64,000 nt of DNA, from positions 24,847 to 88,846 of the forward strand of contig CAKOVI010000001.1 of the NCBI GenBank assembly GCA_934121905.1, read 5' to 3'. Positions 1 through 21,601 of this stretch are shown piece after piece. Source of the DNA: an uncultured Clostridia bacterium. GTDB taxonomy: Bacteria; Bacillota; Clostridia; TANB77; CAG-508. Position numbers and translations under genes: made by a program. Positions within the stretch are counted from its first letter, which is position 1. Every line of letters starts with the position of its first letter. The notes beneath the pieces are model-generated. The model searched no databases and was not told the origin of the DNA. It saw only the letters and a list, made by a program, of their open reading frames with translations.

Positions 1-357
1 TAGAATTTCATAATGTCAGTTGGTTTAATTTTGGTAATATAAAAATGTCCGAAATATGGTATAAGTCTTGTTTCTAACATTCTACAATATCGTTTGTATG
101 TTGAAGGAGCAAGTTCTTTTGAGCCATAATCTCTTTTCCATATTTCAGTAAATTCAGAAAATTTAAGAGATTTACCATCAATTACGAAACCATTTTGTAC
201 TTCAGTAACAAATTTTGCTAGTTCAACTTCTGCATCTTTTTTAGTTCCATGTACTGTTTTTCTGTGTATCATAGGTTTTCCGTTTAGGTCAAATCCTTCT
301 GATACTGTTAGCCTGTAACTATTTTTTCCTCTTTTTTCTATACTCCCAGCCATTACT
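1..357 (-). CDS. int: Tyrosine-type site-specific integrase, N-terminal part (gene continues off the left edge)
   Basis: The reverse-complement translation is MAGSIEKRGKNSYRLTVSEGFDLNGKPMIHRKTVHGTKKDAEVELAKF..., which is a typical phage/ICE integrase N-terminal SAM-like domain. The start codon is at 355-357 with an RBS (ggaggtg) upstream on the minus strand. Confidence 0.8.
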
Positions 358-595
358 TATTTCACCTCCTTTCAAGTATGCCTATGGTGGGAGGAGTACG
401 TGTATAATTGTTAACAACATTATTATACAACAATAGTTAACAAATTGCAATAGATTTCAAAAATAAACTTAAAAAATTTATAAATGTAATAAAATGTAAA
501 AAATGTCGAAAATTTGAAAGCTAAAATCCTTTGAAAATACTGGATTATTTACAGAAAATATGATATAATACGACAAATATATAGGAGGAATTTAC

Positions 596-1141
596 ATGAA
601 TATAATAGAATCAGAGATAAGACAAATTTTTGCATCAATAGTATGGAACCATAAAATTCATGAAAAACATAGTGATATTAATTCTTTTTGGTTTAATGTT
701 TTAGAATTTTGCAAGATATTATCTTCAGCAATTACTACATCAGGATTATTAACTTGCTTTTTTATTGATGAAGTTGCTTTAAAGATAATTACCACTGTTT
801 TTTCAGCTATATCTCTATTTATAAATACTTTTTATAAAACATATAATTTAAAAGAATCAAGAGATAGTCATAAATTAAGCGCATTAGAATTTTTACAATT
901 AAAAAATGAAACCATTTGTGTATTATCAGATATAAAATTAAATAAGATAGAATTGGATGAAGCTACTAAGAAGAGAGATGAGATATTATTAAAATATCAT
1001 AATATATGCAAGAAAAGCTTATCTACATGTGATAGAGCTGTAAAAAAAGCATCAAATGCTTTAAAAATACAAAAAGATAATACATTTTCAGATGAAGAAA
1101 TAGATAGCTATTTACCTGTAGAGCTTAGAAAGGGAAAATAA
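596..1141 (+). CDS. SLATT-like 2-TM effector protein
   Basis: 181 aa with two hydrophobic helices (FWFNVLEFCKILSSAITTSGLLTCFF and ALKIITTVFSAISLFINTFY) followed by a helical tail. Its stop overlaps the start of the downstream nucleotidyltransferase (TAAATG), and an RBS (aggagg) lies upstream. Confidence 0.55.
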   Translation: MNIIESEIRQIFASIVWNHKIHEKHSDINSFWFNVLEFCKILSSAITTSGLLTCFFIDEVALKIITTVFSAISLFINTFYKTYNLKESRDSHKLSALEFLQLKNETICVLSDIKLNKIELDEATKKRDEILLKYHNICKKSLSTCDRAVKKASNALKIQKDNTFSDEEIDSYLPVELRKGK

Positions 1142-2440
1142 ATGATTAAAGATGATTTTTGTGATTTCTGTAACAACATAAAACTAGATAATTTTGAAGA
1201 TATGAAAACAACAGTAAAAGGCATTACAAAAAAACTAAATAAACATTATTATGACATAGATGATGACGAATCTAATATGTATATTGTAGGTTCAGTTGGT
1301 AGAACTACAGCAATAAAAAATACAAGTGATTTGGACATACTTTTTAATCTACCTAAGAGTGTTTATGATAGAATAAATGATAATGATGGAAATAAACAAT
1401 CTCAATTATTACAAGAAGTAAAAAATGTATTGAAAGAAAAATATCCTAATACAGACTTAAAAGGTGATGGACAAGTTGTAGTAATAAACTTTACAAAATA
1501 CACAGTAGAATTAGTTCCAGGATTTAAGCAAAATGATGATTCACTTAAATATCCAGATACAAATGATGGAGGAAGCTGGAAGATTACAAATCCAATTCCA
1601 GAAATAGACGAATGTAAGAAAAAAGATGATGACACAAATGGAAATTTTACAAATATATGTCATATGCTTAGATCATGGAAAAACAAAAAAGGATTTAAAT
1701 TTAAAGGCTTATTAATTGACACTTTGACTAATAATTTCCTTGAAAAGAAGAAGGAATATCAAAATTGTGGATATGAAAATTATTTAAATCTAGTTAAAGA
1801 TATTTTTGAGTTTTTAAAGAATGAAGATAAAGATAAGAGTTATTGGTTTGCAATAGGAAGTAATCAAAAAATATATAATGATGATGGAGGAAAATTCGTA
1901 AAAAAAGCCACAAAAGCTTATAACAAAATTAAAGATTTAAATGAGGATTCTAAAAATTTAAATAAAGAATTAAGGAATCTTTTGGGAAAAGAATTTCCTA
2001 AAGCACAAAATGAGGAAGAAGAAAAAGAACAATACGCTTATGATCATACAGAAGAATTTATTGAAGATGAATATCCTGTTGATGTAGTATTAAATTTAAA
2101 ATTGGATTGTATAGTAACACAAGATGGATTCCGCCCAGCTAGTTTAAGGGATATGATAACAAATCATGTGCTTCTAAAGAGGGATAAAAAATTAGAATTT
2201 TACATAGTAAATAAAGCAGAAATTATGAATTATGGTATAGATAAAATTCTTTGGAAAGTAAAAAACGAAGGAGATTTAGCTAAACAAAAAAACGATATTA
2301 GGGGACAAATTTTAGAAACAAATAGTTATACACATACTGAATATTCTAAATTTGATGGTGACCATTATGTTGAAGCATATATAATAAAAAATGATGTATG
2401 TATAGCTAAAGGAAAAATTGATGTTCCAATAAGGGTTTAA
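1142..2440 (+). CDS. SMODS/CD-NTase-like Pol-beta superfamily nucleotidyltransferase with a C-terminal domain of unknown function
   Basis: It carries the GS-x9-DxD motif (GSVGRTTAIKNTSDLDILF) and a downstream acidic residue (TVELVP), which is the classical minimal nucleotidyltransferase signature. It is translationally coupled to the SLATT gene. Confidence 0.7.
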   Translation: MIKDDFCDFCNNIKLDNFEDMKTTVKGITKKLNKHYYDIDDDESNMYIVGSVGRTTAIKNTSDLDILFNLPKSVYDRINDNDGNKQSQLLQEVKNVLKEKYPNTDLKGDGQVVVINFTKYTVELVPGFKQNDDSLKYPDTNDGGSWKITNPIPEIDECKKKDDDTNGNFTNICHMLRSWKNKKGFKFKGLLIDTLTNNFLEKKKEYQNCGYENYLNLVKDIFEFLKNEDKDKSYWFAIGSNQKIYNDDGGKFVKKATKAYNKIKDLNEDSKNLNKELRNLLGKEFPKAQNEEEEKEQYAYDHTEEFIEDEYPVDVVLNLKLDCIVTQDGFRPASLRDMITNHVLLKRDKKLEFYIVNKAEIMNYGIDKILWKVKNEGDLAKQKNDIRGQILETNSYTHTEYSKFDGDHYVEAYIIKNDVCIAKGKIDVPIRV

Positions 2441-2461
2441 AAGAAAGCGAGAAAATATAAG

Positions 2462-20819: not shown

Positions 20820-20820
20820 T

Positions 20821-21540
20821 ATGATAAATTTAATAGATACACATTTTCATTTAGACTTTTATAAAAATCATAAAGAAATATATAATGACATCAATAAATT
20901 ACATCAATATACTTTATGTGTAACAAACTCACCAGAAGTATATGAAGAATGTCAAAAGTTGTACTTTAATACGAAATATCTTAAATTTGCTTTAGGATTT
21001 AATCCAAAATCAAATAATTCTGAAGAAAGTTTTCGAATGTTTCTCAATAAGTTTAAAGGAGCTATGTATATAGGAGAGGTAGGATTAGATTTTTCTAGAC
21101 AATATAAAAATGTAATTAATGAACAAATAAGATACTTTGACAAAATAGTTGGAATGTGTTCAAGTACAAATAAAATTTTGTCTGTGCATACAAAAAATGC
21201 AGAAGATAAAATAATAGAAATAGTAAAAAAATATAGACCGAAGAAATGTATTATTCATTGGTTTACAGGGAATGAGGAACAATTAAAAAAACTAATAGAC
21301 TTGGGATGTTATTTTTCAATTAACGCTAATATGGTAATTAAGAATAATACTAAATTATTCTTAATTCCAAAAGACAAACTATTGATAGAAAGTGATGGCC
21401 CTTTTACAAAAGTTAATGGTAAAAAATATGAACCAAGGTTTTTAGCTGAACAATATGAAATTATATCAAGTTTTTTTGAGGAAGAAAATCTTAAAGAGAT
21501 AGTATATAAAAATTTTAAGACAATTCTTACTTTAGAATGA
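20821..21540 (+). CDS. qatD: TatD-family metal-dependent DNase, QatD
   Basis: IDTHFHLD is the N-terminal TatD motif. It is coupled to the qatC stop. Confidence 0.8.
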   Translation: MINLIDTHFHLDFYKNHKEIYNDINKLHQYTLCVTNSPEVYEECQKLYFNTKYLKFALGFNPKSNNSEESFRMFLNKFKGAMYIGEVGLDFSRQYKNVINEQIRYFDKIVGMCSSTNKILSVHTKNAEDKIIEIVKKYRPKKCIIHWFTGNEEQLKKLIDLGCYFSINANMVIKNNTKLFLIPKDKLLIESDGPFTKVNGKKYEPRFLAEQYEIISSFFEEENLKEIVYKNFKTILTLE

Positions 21541-21548
21541 TATGAAAA

Positions 21549-21601
21549 AAAGTGTGAAAAATGACTTTTAAACTCAAAAGTCATTTTTCACACTTTTTAT
21601 T
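21549..21601. terminator. Bidirectional rho-independent terminator
   Basis: Near-perfect inverted repeat aaaagtgtgaaaaatgactttt...aaaagtcatttttcacactttttat lying between the convergent qatD and the minus-strand ORF. Confidence 0.75.

What the first reader, a model, noticed from the sequence alone, without database searches (positions are those of the whole stretch)
1..21600. Integrase-linked defence island stacking four systems on one strand (CBASS-like SLATT/SMODS, type I R-M, AbiL-like, QatABCD)
The window opens with a tyrosine integrase N-terminus. A Xis-like HTH and replisome-organizer/DnaC-like replication genes follow. Then about 15 kb of uninterrupted +-strand defence genes end in a strong bidirectional terminator at 21.55 kb.

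Co-localisation of the following on a putative integrative element is a textbook defence island:
- A minimal nucleotidyltransferase-based signalling system.
- A complete type I R-M operon with embedded unknown genes (9884-10258 and 13308-14798).
- An AbiL-type AAA_21 + RloB/TOPRIM pair.
- A full QatABCD system.

It is a good place to look for the uncharacterised companions.
Basis: partly seen in the sequence, partly recalled or inferred. Interest (0 to 1): 0.55.

Follow-up and report, generated by a model that had tools for sequence, protein, structure and literature searches.

The report
Defence-loaded integrative element at tRNA-fMet
The region is a real, roughly 23.5-kb mobile island that sits at an initiator-tRNA attachment site in an uncultured gut Clostridia bacterium and carries four known anti-phage systems plus several candidates. 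It is an ordinary kind of element, but it belongs to a very widespread family that would be useful for finding new defence genes.

Summary
HMM scans identify a type I CBASS (SLATT_4 2TM effector plus SMODS/AGS_C cyclase), a complete type I R-M operon, AbiLi/AbiLii and QatABCD. All lie on the + strand behind an integrase, an Xis-like HTH and a replisome-organiser/DnaC module. A fifth candidate is a PDC-S64-like HEPN protein.

A 15-bp core, CTCATAACCCGAAGG (the anticodon loop/stem of tRNA-fMet), lies at 22242-22256. Relatives carry the same core plus a tRNA 3' half 250-425 nt beyond the integrase stop.

Contigs encoding an identical Def protein hold three different cargo sets left of that core and the same sequence (1-2 base differences) right of it. 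One sibling element abuts three different flanks at the core.

The integrase is 80-98% identical in at least 80 GTDB species genomes. The shared backbone is int, a variable slot, DUF6076, xis, repO and dnaC, and most members also carry o207. Both variable regions are filled with defence genes.

The window's element has no relaxase, capsid or packaging genes. A sister clade has a MOB relaxase. I read it as a relaxase-less integrative mobilisable element, often stacked in tandem.

It is a new member of a known kind. Side finds are a conserved structured non-coding block (6267-6431) and a HEPN-fold gene coupled to hsdR.

The parts
1..353 (-). N-terminal 117 aa of a tyrosine integrase. The full protein is 396 aa in relatives and the gene runs off the left edge of the window.
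   Evidence: Phage_int_SAM_3 5.2e-14. L009 is 99% identical in DNA and gives the full protein, which carries R, HxxR and Y aligned to integrase 3nkh and the Tn1549 Int.
596..1141 (+). CBASS effector, a SLATT_4 two-transmembrane protein
   Evidence: PF18186 6.7e-40; PADLOC 2TM effector PDLC00696 6.4e-51
1142..2440 (+). CD-NTase (SMODS) with a C-terminal AGS_C sensor domain
   Evidence: PF18144 1.8e-39, PF18134 1.6e-38; PADLOC cyclase 2.9e-161 over the full length. GSVGR and DLD motifs are visible in the translation.
2462..3364 (+). PDC-S64-like candidate defence protein with an Rx4H (RNNFIH) HEPN-type motif and a Cys-rich C-terminus
   Evidence: PADLOC PDC-S64 2.5e-14, DUF3644 3.5e-05. The motif is read from the translation. 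No PDB or NCBIfam match.
3367..3391 (.). Bidirectional terminator-like hairpin between the converging cargo gene and the DUF6076 gene
3391..4440 (-). DUF6076 backbone gene, divergent from xis. Possibly the element's regulator (inference).
   Evidence: PF19553 2e-12. Conserved next to xis in about 60 loci.
4590..4787 (+). Xis-like HTH_17 protein
   Evidence: PF12728 3.5e-10; Tn916-Xis 0.0023; PHROG excisionase families
4747..5325 (+). Phage-type replisome organiser
   Evidence: PF09681 6.1e-30; PHROG replisome organiser 1.6e-30
5288..6142 (+). DnaC/IstB-like helicase loader
   Evidence: PF01695 1.4e-12; PHROG DnaC-like 1.9e-36
6267..6431 (+). Conserved structured non-coding block between dnaC and o207. 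It is a candidate leader RNA, oriT or origin.
   Evidence: 89% mean column identity over 26 distinct sequences. Seven predicted helices with 98% of cells paired, against 36-51% when partners are slid, and 5 pairs with compensatory changes. Found once per element in 35 loci. No Rfam family.
6458..7081 (+). o207, a backbone protein of unknown family with a predicted winged-helix DNA-binding domain followed by a long helix
7105..8673 (+). hsdM (likely true start ATG at 7171)
   Evidence: PADLOC MTase_I 2.3e-199, with the match starting at residue 30
8606..9844 (+). hsdS with two target-recognition domains (likely true start ATG at 8663)
   Evidence: PADLOC Specificity_I 1.5e-65, two stretches. 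In L013 hsdM is 99% identical but hsdS only 62%.
9884..10258 (+). o124, an unknown gene between hsdS and hsdR
   Evidence: No Pfam, PADLOC or NCBIfam hit. 50 clade-restricted clusters. It sits in the same position in sibling element L108 at 68% identity.
10281..13307 (+). hsdR
   Evidence: PADLOC REase_I 3e-289, residues 2-1001
13308..14171 (+). o287, a HEPN-fold (DUF5677-like) protein that starts at the base after the hsdR stop codon
14168..14434 (+). o88, a DUF7695 zinc-ribbon protein that overlaps o287 by 4 nt
   Evidence: PF24749 4.3e-16
14415..14798 (+). ASCH-domain protein
   Evidence: PF04266 1.1e-11; phrog_3193 2.1e-40; PDC-M11B 4.7e-05
14898..16133 (+). AbiLi (AAA_21 ABC-type ATPase)
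   Evidence: PADLOC AbiLi 5.8e-89; PF13304 1.7e-28. A promoter-like site lies at 14844-14872.
16120..16761 (+). AbiLii (RloB)
   Evidence: PADLOC AbiLii 1.9e-28; PF13707 3.4e-41
16865..18745 (+). QatA (KAP P-loop NTPase). The likely start is 16901, as called in L089.
   Evidence: PADLOC QatA 4.6e-97; PF07693 5.4e-51
18749..19432 (+). QatB, whose N-terminus reads MGTS
   Evidence: PADLOC QatB 2.3e-07. PF28083 QatB on the same-length (227 aa) QatB gene of the window-like contig L089. The MGTS motif is described as essential in PMC13279940.
19377..20819 (+). QatC (QueC family). The likely start is 19437.
   Evidence: PADLOC QatC 1.7e-99. SGGLDS PP-loop in the translation, compared.
20821..21540 (+). 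QatD (TatD-like nuclease) with HFH near the N-terminus
   Evidence: PADLOC QatD 8.2e-57; PF01026 1.5e-42
21542..21603 (.). Long inverted repeat acting as a bidirectional terminator between QatD and o97
   Evidence: 28-nt arms, 93% complementary, 6-nt loop
21605..21898 (-). o97, an unknown gene typical of the right end of elements in this family
   Evidence: Homologues lie next to the att core in L026, L028, L057, L062, L066 and L099-L107. No family hit.
22100..22121 (+). Tandem AATTGGGTAAA repeat, probably arm-type recombinase binding sites
   Evidence: The same 24-mer lies in the integrase-proximal arm of 23 relatives and in the window-like attR arms.
22242..22256 (+). attR core CTCATAACCCGAAGG, identical to the anticodon loop/stem of tRNA-fMet; this is the right end of the element
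   Evidence: Single match in the window, 0.01 expected. It is the breakpoint between variable cargo and conserved flank in L087-L096 and in L108-L111.

Best explanation
Window 1-22256, plus about 1.2 kb to the left of the window, is one integrated mobile element of roughly 23.5 kb.

Integration. A Tn916/Tn1549-type tyrosine integrase recombines a 15-bp core in the anticodon loop of a tRNA-fMet gene. The element carries its own copy of the tRNA 3' half next to int, so integration rebuilds the tRNA.

Excision and replication. An Xis-like HTH would direct excision. A phage-type replisome organiser with a DnaC-like loader would replicate the excised circle.

Transfer. The element encodes no relaxase, coupling protein, capsid or packaging genes, so transfer must depend on a helper. 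A sister clade with the same int, xis and rep backbone carries a MOB relaxase. I therefore think this lineage is a relaxase-less integrative mobilisable element. It would move either in trans via a conserved cis site (candidate: 6267-6431, with the DNA-binding o207) or in cis with tandem neighbours.

Cargo. There are two cargo regions. Slot 1 lies between int and DUF6076. The second is the long region after o207. Both act as defence hotspots. In this copy they hold:
- a type I CBASS (cyclic-nucleotide signal leading to a membrane-disrupting 2TM effector);
- a PDC-S64-like HEPN protein;
- a type I R-M with a coupled HEPN/Zn-ribbon/ASCH trio;
- AbiL;
- QatABCD.

What is shown: gene identities, the att core, the strain polymorphism and the family backbone. 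What is inferred: excision, replication, helper dependence, and the activity of each system.
For: Att site.
- The core is unique in the window.
- A tRNA 3' half lies 250-425 nt after the int stop in 58 loci. In 13 of them it is fused to an intact tRNA 5' half.
- Arm repeats are present on both arms.

Mobility.
- Contigs encoding an identical Def protein have three cargo sets that differ left of the core and match right of it apart from 1-2 bases.
- Sibling element L108-L111 is identical up to the core and then continues into three different flanks.
- Nine metagenome contigs join the window-type right arm to a tRNA 3' half. One of them (L101) then continues into an integrase 93% identical.

Family.
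- The integrase is 80-98% identical in 80 loci from different GTDB species. It is full length in 74 of the 77 loci where the gene is not cut by the contig end.
- The backbone order is conserved.
- Modules are shuffled. L011 has the same CBASS at 97-99% with dnaC at 58%. L013 has the same backbone at 90-97% with different slot-1 genes.

Hotspots.
- Slot 1 holds Pycsar, ThsA/SIR2-like, ApeA-like, Ppl, Tmn, PifA-like and Avs2 proteins and several ABC ATPases.
- The region after dnaC/o207 holds R-M methylases and helicases.

Relaxase: PF03432 is found in 12 loci of the sister clade.

Literature: relaxase-less IMEs and tandem accretion at tRNA genes are described in PMC5704250.
Against: - attL of this very copy lies outside the window. 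It is inferred from L009, which is 99% identical over window 1-3964.
- The sequence right of the attR core (CAGACCCCAAAAATT...) is not a recognisable tRNA 3' half, here or in three other contexts. The simplest tRNA-target model is therefore incomplete.
- No empty attB and no unambiguous excised circle were found. The attP-like junctions sit in long contigs, so they are tandem arrays.
- No oriT or helper element was identified.
- The conserved non-coding block is absent from the relaxase-bearing clade at nhmmer E<1e-3. It is therefore not a shared oriT.
- One IMG/VR contig carries the backbone, which leaves a phage link open.
Confidence: 0.8

Rival explanations
1. It is a phage satellite of the PICI or PICMI type. 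It would excise and replicate when a helper phage infects and be packaged in helper capsids. The defence cargo would protect the host and the satellite.
For: The layout is int and DUF6076 leftward, with xis and phage-type replication genes rightward. The element is small and has no transfer genes. ASCH and the distant o124 homologues occur in phage contexts. One IMG/VR contig carries the backbone. Satellites are known to carry defence hotspots (my own knowledge: Rousset et al. 2022).
Against: None of the 27 window ORFs is a terS, capsid-remodelling or packaging-interference gene. There is no nucleotide match in 50,697 phage records. The sister clade carries a conjugative-type relaxase.
Confidence: 0.2
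2. It is a decayed prophage remnant that has become a fixed chromosomal defence island and no longer moves.
For: The replication genes and Xis are phage-type. No empty site was seen among the contigs that share the Def protein. The right flank is not a clean tRNA 3' half.
Against: The integrase is full length in 74 of 77 loci and 80-98% identical across many species. The same element abuts three different flanks. Cargo differs between contigs with an identical Def protein. No structural-gene remnants were found.
Confidence: 0.07
3. Two separate things lie side by side. One is a small int-rep element of about 7 kb (1-7100). The other is an independent chromosomal R-M/AbiL/Qat island that merely abuts it.
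For: In L098 an hsdMSR-o287 island with an o97-like end lies next to maf with no int backbone nearby. Contig L001 breaks right after o207.
Against: The att core lies beyond QatD and o97, not after o207. A type I hsdM follows o207 directly in L013, L025, L060 and L108-L111. In L108 the whole run from int to the o97-like gene moves as a block into different flanks.
Confidence: 0.08

Closest known systems
Integrative and mobilisable elements (IMEs) of Firmicutes, including relaxase-less and tandem-accreted forms (Guedon et al. 2017, PMC5704250)
   Same: It has a tyrosine integrase and Xis. It inserts site-specifically in a tRNA gene with short direct repeats. It has no T4SS. It forms tandem arrays with other islands at the same att site. 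A sister clade encodes a MobA/VirD2-type relaxase.
   Different: This lineage has no relaxase and no recognised oriT. It has a phage-type theta replication module (replisome organiser plus DnaC-like loader) rather than a rolling-circle Rep. Its cargo is almost purely anti-phage defence.
Phage satellites with defence hotspots (P4-like elements, PICIs, PICMIs)
   Same: It has the divergent int/regulator versus xis/replication layout. It has variable cargo slots at fixed positions filled with defence systems, and it depends on a helper.
   Different: It has no terS, cos, capsid-size or helper-interference genes. No helper is known, and no member was found in the phage genome collection.
Defence islands on chromosomally integrated MGEs (Botelho 2023, PMC10201445; Hochhauser et al. 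2023, PMC10121019)
   Same: Several unrelated defence systems are stacked in one integrase-linked, strain-variable hotspot.
   Different: The host clade is uncultured, low-GC gut Clostridia. The target is tRNA-fMet and the backbone family differs.
QatABCD (Gao et al. 2020; PMC13279940, PMC13376578, PMC13434339)
   Same: The four genes are in the canonical order. The motifs are present: KAP NTPase Walker A, QatB MGTS N-terminus, QatC SGGxDS, QatD HxH.
   Different: It is a firmicute, AT-rich version. The match to the QatB profile is weak (2.3e-07). Activity was not tested.
R-M-linked ORFs (rlo genes) of Campylobacter type I hsd loci, and HEPN genes linked to R-M systems (my own knowledge: Miller et al. 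2005; Anantharaman et al. 2013)
   Same: Unknown genes are inserted between and after the hsd genes. RloB and HEPN-fold proteins are physically linked to a type I R-M.
   Different: The o124 and o287/o88/ASCH genes are clade-specific and have no detectable sequence relation to the named rlo genes.

Membership tests
CBASS type I | CD-NTase (SMODS) cyclase | tested here: met
   PF18144 1.8e-39; PADLOC cyclase 2.9e-161 over the full length
CBASS type I | Adjacent effector gene in the same operon | tested here: met
   The SLATT_4 2TM effector ends at 1141 and the cyclase starts at 1142
CBASS type I | No Cap2/Cap3, HORMA/TRIP13 or QueC-type ancillary genes | tested here: met
   Neighbouring ORFs have no such hits. 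The third gene is PDC-S64-like.
CBASS type I | Catalytic GS...[DE]x[DE]...[DE] residues and cyclic-oligonucleotide synthesis | tested here: inconclusive
   GSVGR and DLD are visible in the translation. The third acidic residue was not aligned, because the protein has no sequence relative in the PDB. Enzyme activity cannot be tested here.
Type I restriction-modification | hsdM, hsdS and hsdR all present and full length | tested here: met
   2.3e-199, 1.5e-65 (two TRDs) and 3e-289 (residues 2-1001)
AbiL | AbiLi ATPase together with AbiLii (RloB) as an overlapping pair | tested here: met
   5.8e-89 and 1.9e-28; the two ORFs overlap by 14 nt
QatABCD | Four genes in the order KAP NTPase, QatB, QueC-like QatC, TatD-like QatD | tested here: met
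   PF07693, PF06508 (weak) and PF01026
QatABCD | QatB N-terminal MGTS glycine motif, QatC SGGxDS PP-loop, QatD HxH | tested here: met
   MGTSKGY..., SGGLDS and THFH in the translations, compared and the abstract
Site-specific integrative element (tyrosine recombinase) | Intact integrase with R...HxxR...Y | tested here: met
   Only 117 aa lie in the window. L009 (99% DNA identity) gives 396 aa with these residues aligned to 3nkh.
Site-specific integrative element (tyrosine recombinase) | Direct repeat of the att core at both ends | tested here: met
   attR is at 22242-22256. attL was seen in L009 and 57 other loci, not in the window itself.
Site-specific integrative element (tyrosine recombinase) | Presence or cargo polymorphism at the same chromosomal site | tested here: met
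   Three cargo types beside an identical Def flank. One element in three different flanks. No empty site was seen.
Canonical IME | Own relaxase and oriT | tested here: not met
   No PF03432 or other relaxase among the window ORFs. A relaxase is present only in the sister clade. oriT was not identified.
PICI / phage satellite | Packaging or helper-exploitation genes (terS, cpm, ppi, cos) and induction by a helper phage | tested here: not met
   No such hits in Pfam or PHROGs. Induction cannot be tested here.
Prophage | Capsid, portal, terminase, tail and lysis genes | tested here: not met
   None in 22 kb. No match in the phage collection.
HEPN superfamily (for o287 and the PDC-S64-like protein) | HEPN four-helix fold and the Rx4-6H motif | tested here: inconclusive

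The most novel reading that the evidence does not exclude
The int / DUF6076 / xis / repO / dnaC / o207 backbone would define an undescribed and extremely abundant class of helper-dependent, replication-competent integrative elements in uncultured gut Clostridia. Its hitch-hiking signal would be the conserved structured non-coding block (6267-6431) read by the DNA-binding o207 protein. Its two cargo slots would be a rich source of new defence systems, including an hsdR-coupled HEPN/Zn-ribbon/ASCH module.
Probability: 0.3. Interest if true: 0.6.

Novelty: new member of a known kind. Interest (0 to 1): 0.42.

Why it matters
The four named systems are known, and defence islands on integrated elements are well documented, so the window itself holds no surprise.

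The value lies in the family. The integrase is nearly invariant and the att site is precisely defined. Two fixed cargo slots recur in at least 80 species genomes here (236 tblastn-confirmed stretches in the GTDB scan) and in about 2,000 o207 protein clusters. This gives a simple anchor for mining defence genes in gut Clostridia that cannot yet be cultured.

About a third of the large slot-1 proteins I sampled had no PADLOC hit. The o124 and o287/o88/ASCH genes linked to the type I R-M are untested candidates.

Tried and rejected
- I searched the window for the sequence immediately after the integrase stop in relatives (AATTTTCACGAT) and for the terminator-like flank. There was no match. The real repeat turned out to be the tRNA core further out.
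- The motif CTAATTTTCACAA occurs near both ends, but in inverted orientation. I dropped it as an att core. It may be an accessory binding site.
- ARAGORN finds no tRNA in the window.
- Look-ups of the SLATT and cyclase proteins returned only short contigs that break inside the integrase.
- blastn of the backbone against the phage and plasmid collections gave no match.
- Rfam gave nothing for the conserved non-coding block, at gathering or at E<10.
- PDB sequence searches for the cyclase and the PDC-S64-like protein gave nothing useful.
- o207 shows no similarity to the sister clade's relaxase or to its 128-aa partner.
- A literature search for DUF6076 returned no papers.
- I did not find an empty attB or a clearly circular contig.

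
Full report
**What is in the sequence**

The window has about 25% G+C. From 596 to 21540 nearly all long ORFs lie on the + strand. PADLOC and Pfam scans give the following gene list.

| Coordinates | Strand | Identity | Support |
|---|---|---|---|
| 1-353 | - | Tyrosine integrase, N-terminal 117 aa | Phage_int_SAM_3 5.2e-14 |
| 596-1141 | + | SLATT_4 2TM effector | 6.7e-40 |
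| 1142-2440 | + | SMODS cyclase with AGS_C domain | PADLOC cyclase 2.9e-161 |
| 2462-3364 | + | PDC-S64-like protein | 2.5e-14 |
| 3391-4440 | - | DUF6076 protein | PF19553 2e-12 |
| 4590-4787 | + | HTH_17, Xis-like | PF12728 3.5e-10 |
| 4747-5325 | + | Phage_rep_org_N | PF09681 6.1e-30 |
| 5288-6142 | + | IstB/DnaC-like loader | PF01695 1.4e-12 |
| 6458-7081 | + | o207, unknown 207-aa protein | no family hit |
| 7105-13307 | + | hsdM, hsdS, unknown o124, hsdR | see part list |
| 13308-14798 | + | Three overlapping ORFs: o287 (weak DUF5677), o88 (DUF7695), ASCH | |
| 14898-16761 | + | AbiLi and AbiLii/RloB | 5.8e-89, 1.9e-28 |
| 16865-21540 | + | QatA, QatB, QatC, QatD | |

The PDC-S64-like translation shows an RNNFIH (Rx4H) motif and a Cys-rich tail. 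A 28-nt-arm inverted repeat at 21542-21603 closes the + strand block. A 97-aa ORF on the minus strand (o97) follows it.

**Checks on the named systems**

- QatB begins MGTS, QatC contains SGGLDS, and QatD contains HFH.
- These are the motifs reported as essential or characteristic for qatABCD in PMC13279940 and related papers.
- The CBASS has only a cyclase and an effector, so it is type I.
- The cyclase shows GSVGR and DLD. I could not align its third catalytic residue, because the protein has no sequence relative in the PDB.
- hsdR is matched over residues 2-1001, and hsdS has two recognition domains.
- Consensus promoter-like sites precede abiLi (14844-14872) and qatA (16842-16869). Such matches are not evidence of function.

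**Finding the ends**

A scan of one genome per GTDB species with the integrase returned 236 confirmed matches. The best 80 loci have 80-98% identity and come almost entirely from uncultured gut Clostridia MAGs, for example CAG:273, CAG:343 and Hadza bins.

The integrase is 394-398 aa in 74 of the 77 loci where the contig does not cut it. It carries the R/HxxR/Y catalytic residues. Its closest solved relatives are integrase 3nkh and the Tn1549 Int.

An alignment of the sequence beyond the integrase stop showed the 3' half of a tRNA. ARAGORN calls an intact tRNA-Met(CAT) there in L007 and L008. The tRNA sequence has the three G-C pairs in the anticodon stem that mark an initiator tRNA.

- In 58 loci the 45-nt tRNA 3' half lies 250-425 nt after the integrase stop.
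- In 13 of these it is joined to a genuine 5' half.
- In the other 45 it is joined to unrelated DNA.

The shared part begins at CTCATAACCCGAAGG. This 15-mer occurs exactly once in the window, at 22242-22256 on the + strand, against 0.01 expected.

A tandem AATTGGGTAAA repeat lies about 130 nt inside the core at 22100-22121. The same 24-mer lies in the integrase-proximal arm of 23 relatives. These are probably arm-type binding sites.

L009 is 99% identical to window 1-3964. It places the left core about 1.2 kb left of window position 1. The element is therefore about 23.5 kb.

**Evidence that it moves**

- Ten contigs encode a Def protein identical to the one at 22400-22810. They match the window from the core rightward apart from 1-2 bases. 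To the left they carry three different gene sets: the window's AbiL/Qat set, a Fic/DUF5655 set, and a SocA-Panacea/Fic set. The breakpoint is exactly at the core.
- A sibling element (L108-L111) runs int, DUF6076, xis, rep, o207, hsdM, hsdS, o124 homologue, hsdR, AAA, S8 peptidase, o97-like. It is identical up to the core and then continues into three different flanks.
- Nine metagenome contigs join a window-type right arm and core to a tRNA 3' half. In L101 an integrase 93% identical follows.
- Because these contigs are long, I read them as tandem arrays and not as free circles. Tandem accretion at tRNA sites is documented for IMEs (PMC5704250).
- I did not see an empty site.

**The family and its hotspots**

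The backbone order is conserved across about 60 loci: int, variable slot, DUF6076, xis, repO, dnaC, and in most members o207. Modules are shuffled between members.

- L011 has the same CBASS cassette at 97-99% protein identity, but dnaC at 58%.
- L013 has the backbone at 90-97% and hsdM at 99%, but different slot-1 genes and hsdS at 62%.

Slot 1 spans 0.5-4.7 kb. Across 59 loci it held 137 ORFs, which matched 408 PADLOC families at 1e-5. These include Pycsar cyclases and AriA, PtuA, GajA, AbiLi and Old-type ATPases.

Ten large single genes sampled from slot 1 included ThsA/SIR2-like, PDC-S58/ApeA-like, Ppl, Tmn, PifA-like and Avs2 proteins. Three had no hit. In L108 slot 1 is empty.

The region after dnaC/o207 is rich in R-M components.

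**How it may transfer**

None of the window's ORFs is a relaxase, coupling protein, or capsid or terminase gene. The backbone has no nucleotide match in the phage or plasmid collections.

In the more distant clade (integrase 80-84% identical), dnaC is followed by a 128-aa gene and a protein of about 462 aa with a MobA/VirD2 relaxase domain. This was seen in 12 loci. That places the family among integrative mobilisable elements.

The window's clade has instead a conserved non-coding block and o207. I infer a relaxase-less IME that depends on a helper. This step is inference. A satellite lifestyle is not excluded, and one IMG/VR contig holds the backbone.

**The conserved non-coding block**

Between dnaC and o207, positions 6267-6431 are more conserved than the flanking proteins: 89% mean column identity in 26 distinct sequences.

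- RNAalifold predicts seven helices.
- 98% of cells are paired, against 36-51% when partners are slid.
- Five pairs show compensatory changes, for example A-U versus C-G split 13:13.
- Most pairs never vary, so the support comes mainly from conservation.
- G-U pairs favour the + strand.
- nhmmer finds the block once per element in 35 loci, and only in the o207 clade.
- It matches no Rfam family.

**The uncharacterised companions**

o287:
- It starts at the base after the hsdR stop codon.
- It is followed by overlapping o88 (a DUF7695 zinc ribbon) and ASCH.
- Its homologues are confined to this clade: 123 clusters, at least 56% identical over full-length matches.
- It follows hsdR again in L026 and L098.
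- The conserved residues are RNxxE and HPTxxRN, not a canonical Rx4-6H. A nuclease role is therefore unproven.

o124:
- It has 50 clade-restricted relatives.
- It keeps its place between hsdS and hsdR in L108.
- A 48%-identical relative sits in a phage-like block beside NADAR and Macro genes.

**Unexplained**

The DNA right of the attR core is not a tRNA 3' half in this genome or in L108-L111. Either the displaced tRNA end has decayed, or these arrays abut other islands.

**Verdict**

This is a genuine, well-bounded defence island on an integrative element. It is of a known kind, but it belongs to a large and apparently undescribed family.

Noticed in passing
window 6267-6431 (+): A non-coding block of about 165 nt between dnaC and o207 is more conserved than the neighbouring genes. 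It has seven predicted hairpins and some compensatory changes, matches no Rfam family, and occurs once per element in 35 loci.
   Followed up: partly
window 22257-22399: The flank right of the att core (CAGACCCCAAAAATT...) is not a tRNA 3' half, although the element targets a tRNA-fMet gene. The same is true of three other flanks in L108, L109 and L111.
   Followed up: partly
L065-L086, e.g. L071:1487-2869 (-): A sister clade of the element carries a 128-aa gene and a MobA/VirD2-type relaxase of about 462 aa after dnaC. The window's clade has the non-coding block and o207 at that position.
   Followed up: partly
window 55459-55535 (+): A skipping-rope RNA (RF02924) scores 45.7 bits, above the gathering threshold.
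   Followed up: no
window 23900-25300, compared with L094:5434-8764: This is a second strain-variable spot about 1.5 kb right of attR. After the CBAH gene, contigs with the same Def protein carry Cas6 and Cas_CXXC_CXXC genes where the window has an Amidase_3 gene on the minus strand.
   Followed up: no
window 39420-47078 (+): A single 2552-aa ORF, which I did not examine.
   Followed up: no
L112:298-693, L113, L114: Distant homologues of o124 (48% identity) lie in phage-like gene blocks next to NADAR, Macro and YopX genes. This could hint at an anti-defence or regulatory role.
   Followed up: partly
window 8606-9844, compared with L013:596-1816: hsdM is 99% identical between two elements while hsdS is only 62%. 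This is the usual sign of specificity-domain swapping in type I R-M systems.
   Followed up: no
window 22204-22217, and L009 just after the int stop: The motif CTAATTTTCACAA occurs about 25 nt inside attR and, in inverted orientation and duplicated, right after the integrase stop. It may be an accessory-protein binding site. I did not test it statistically.
   Followed up: no
L098:3258-20834: An hsdMSR-o287 island with OLD-like, AAA_21, SocA_Panacea and DUF6414 genes and an o97-like end lies next to maf with no integrase backbone in view. It may be a decayed or differently anchored relative.
   Followed up: no
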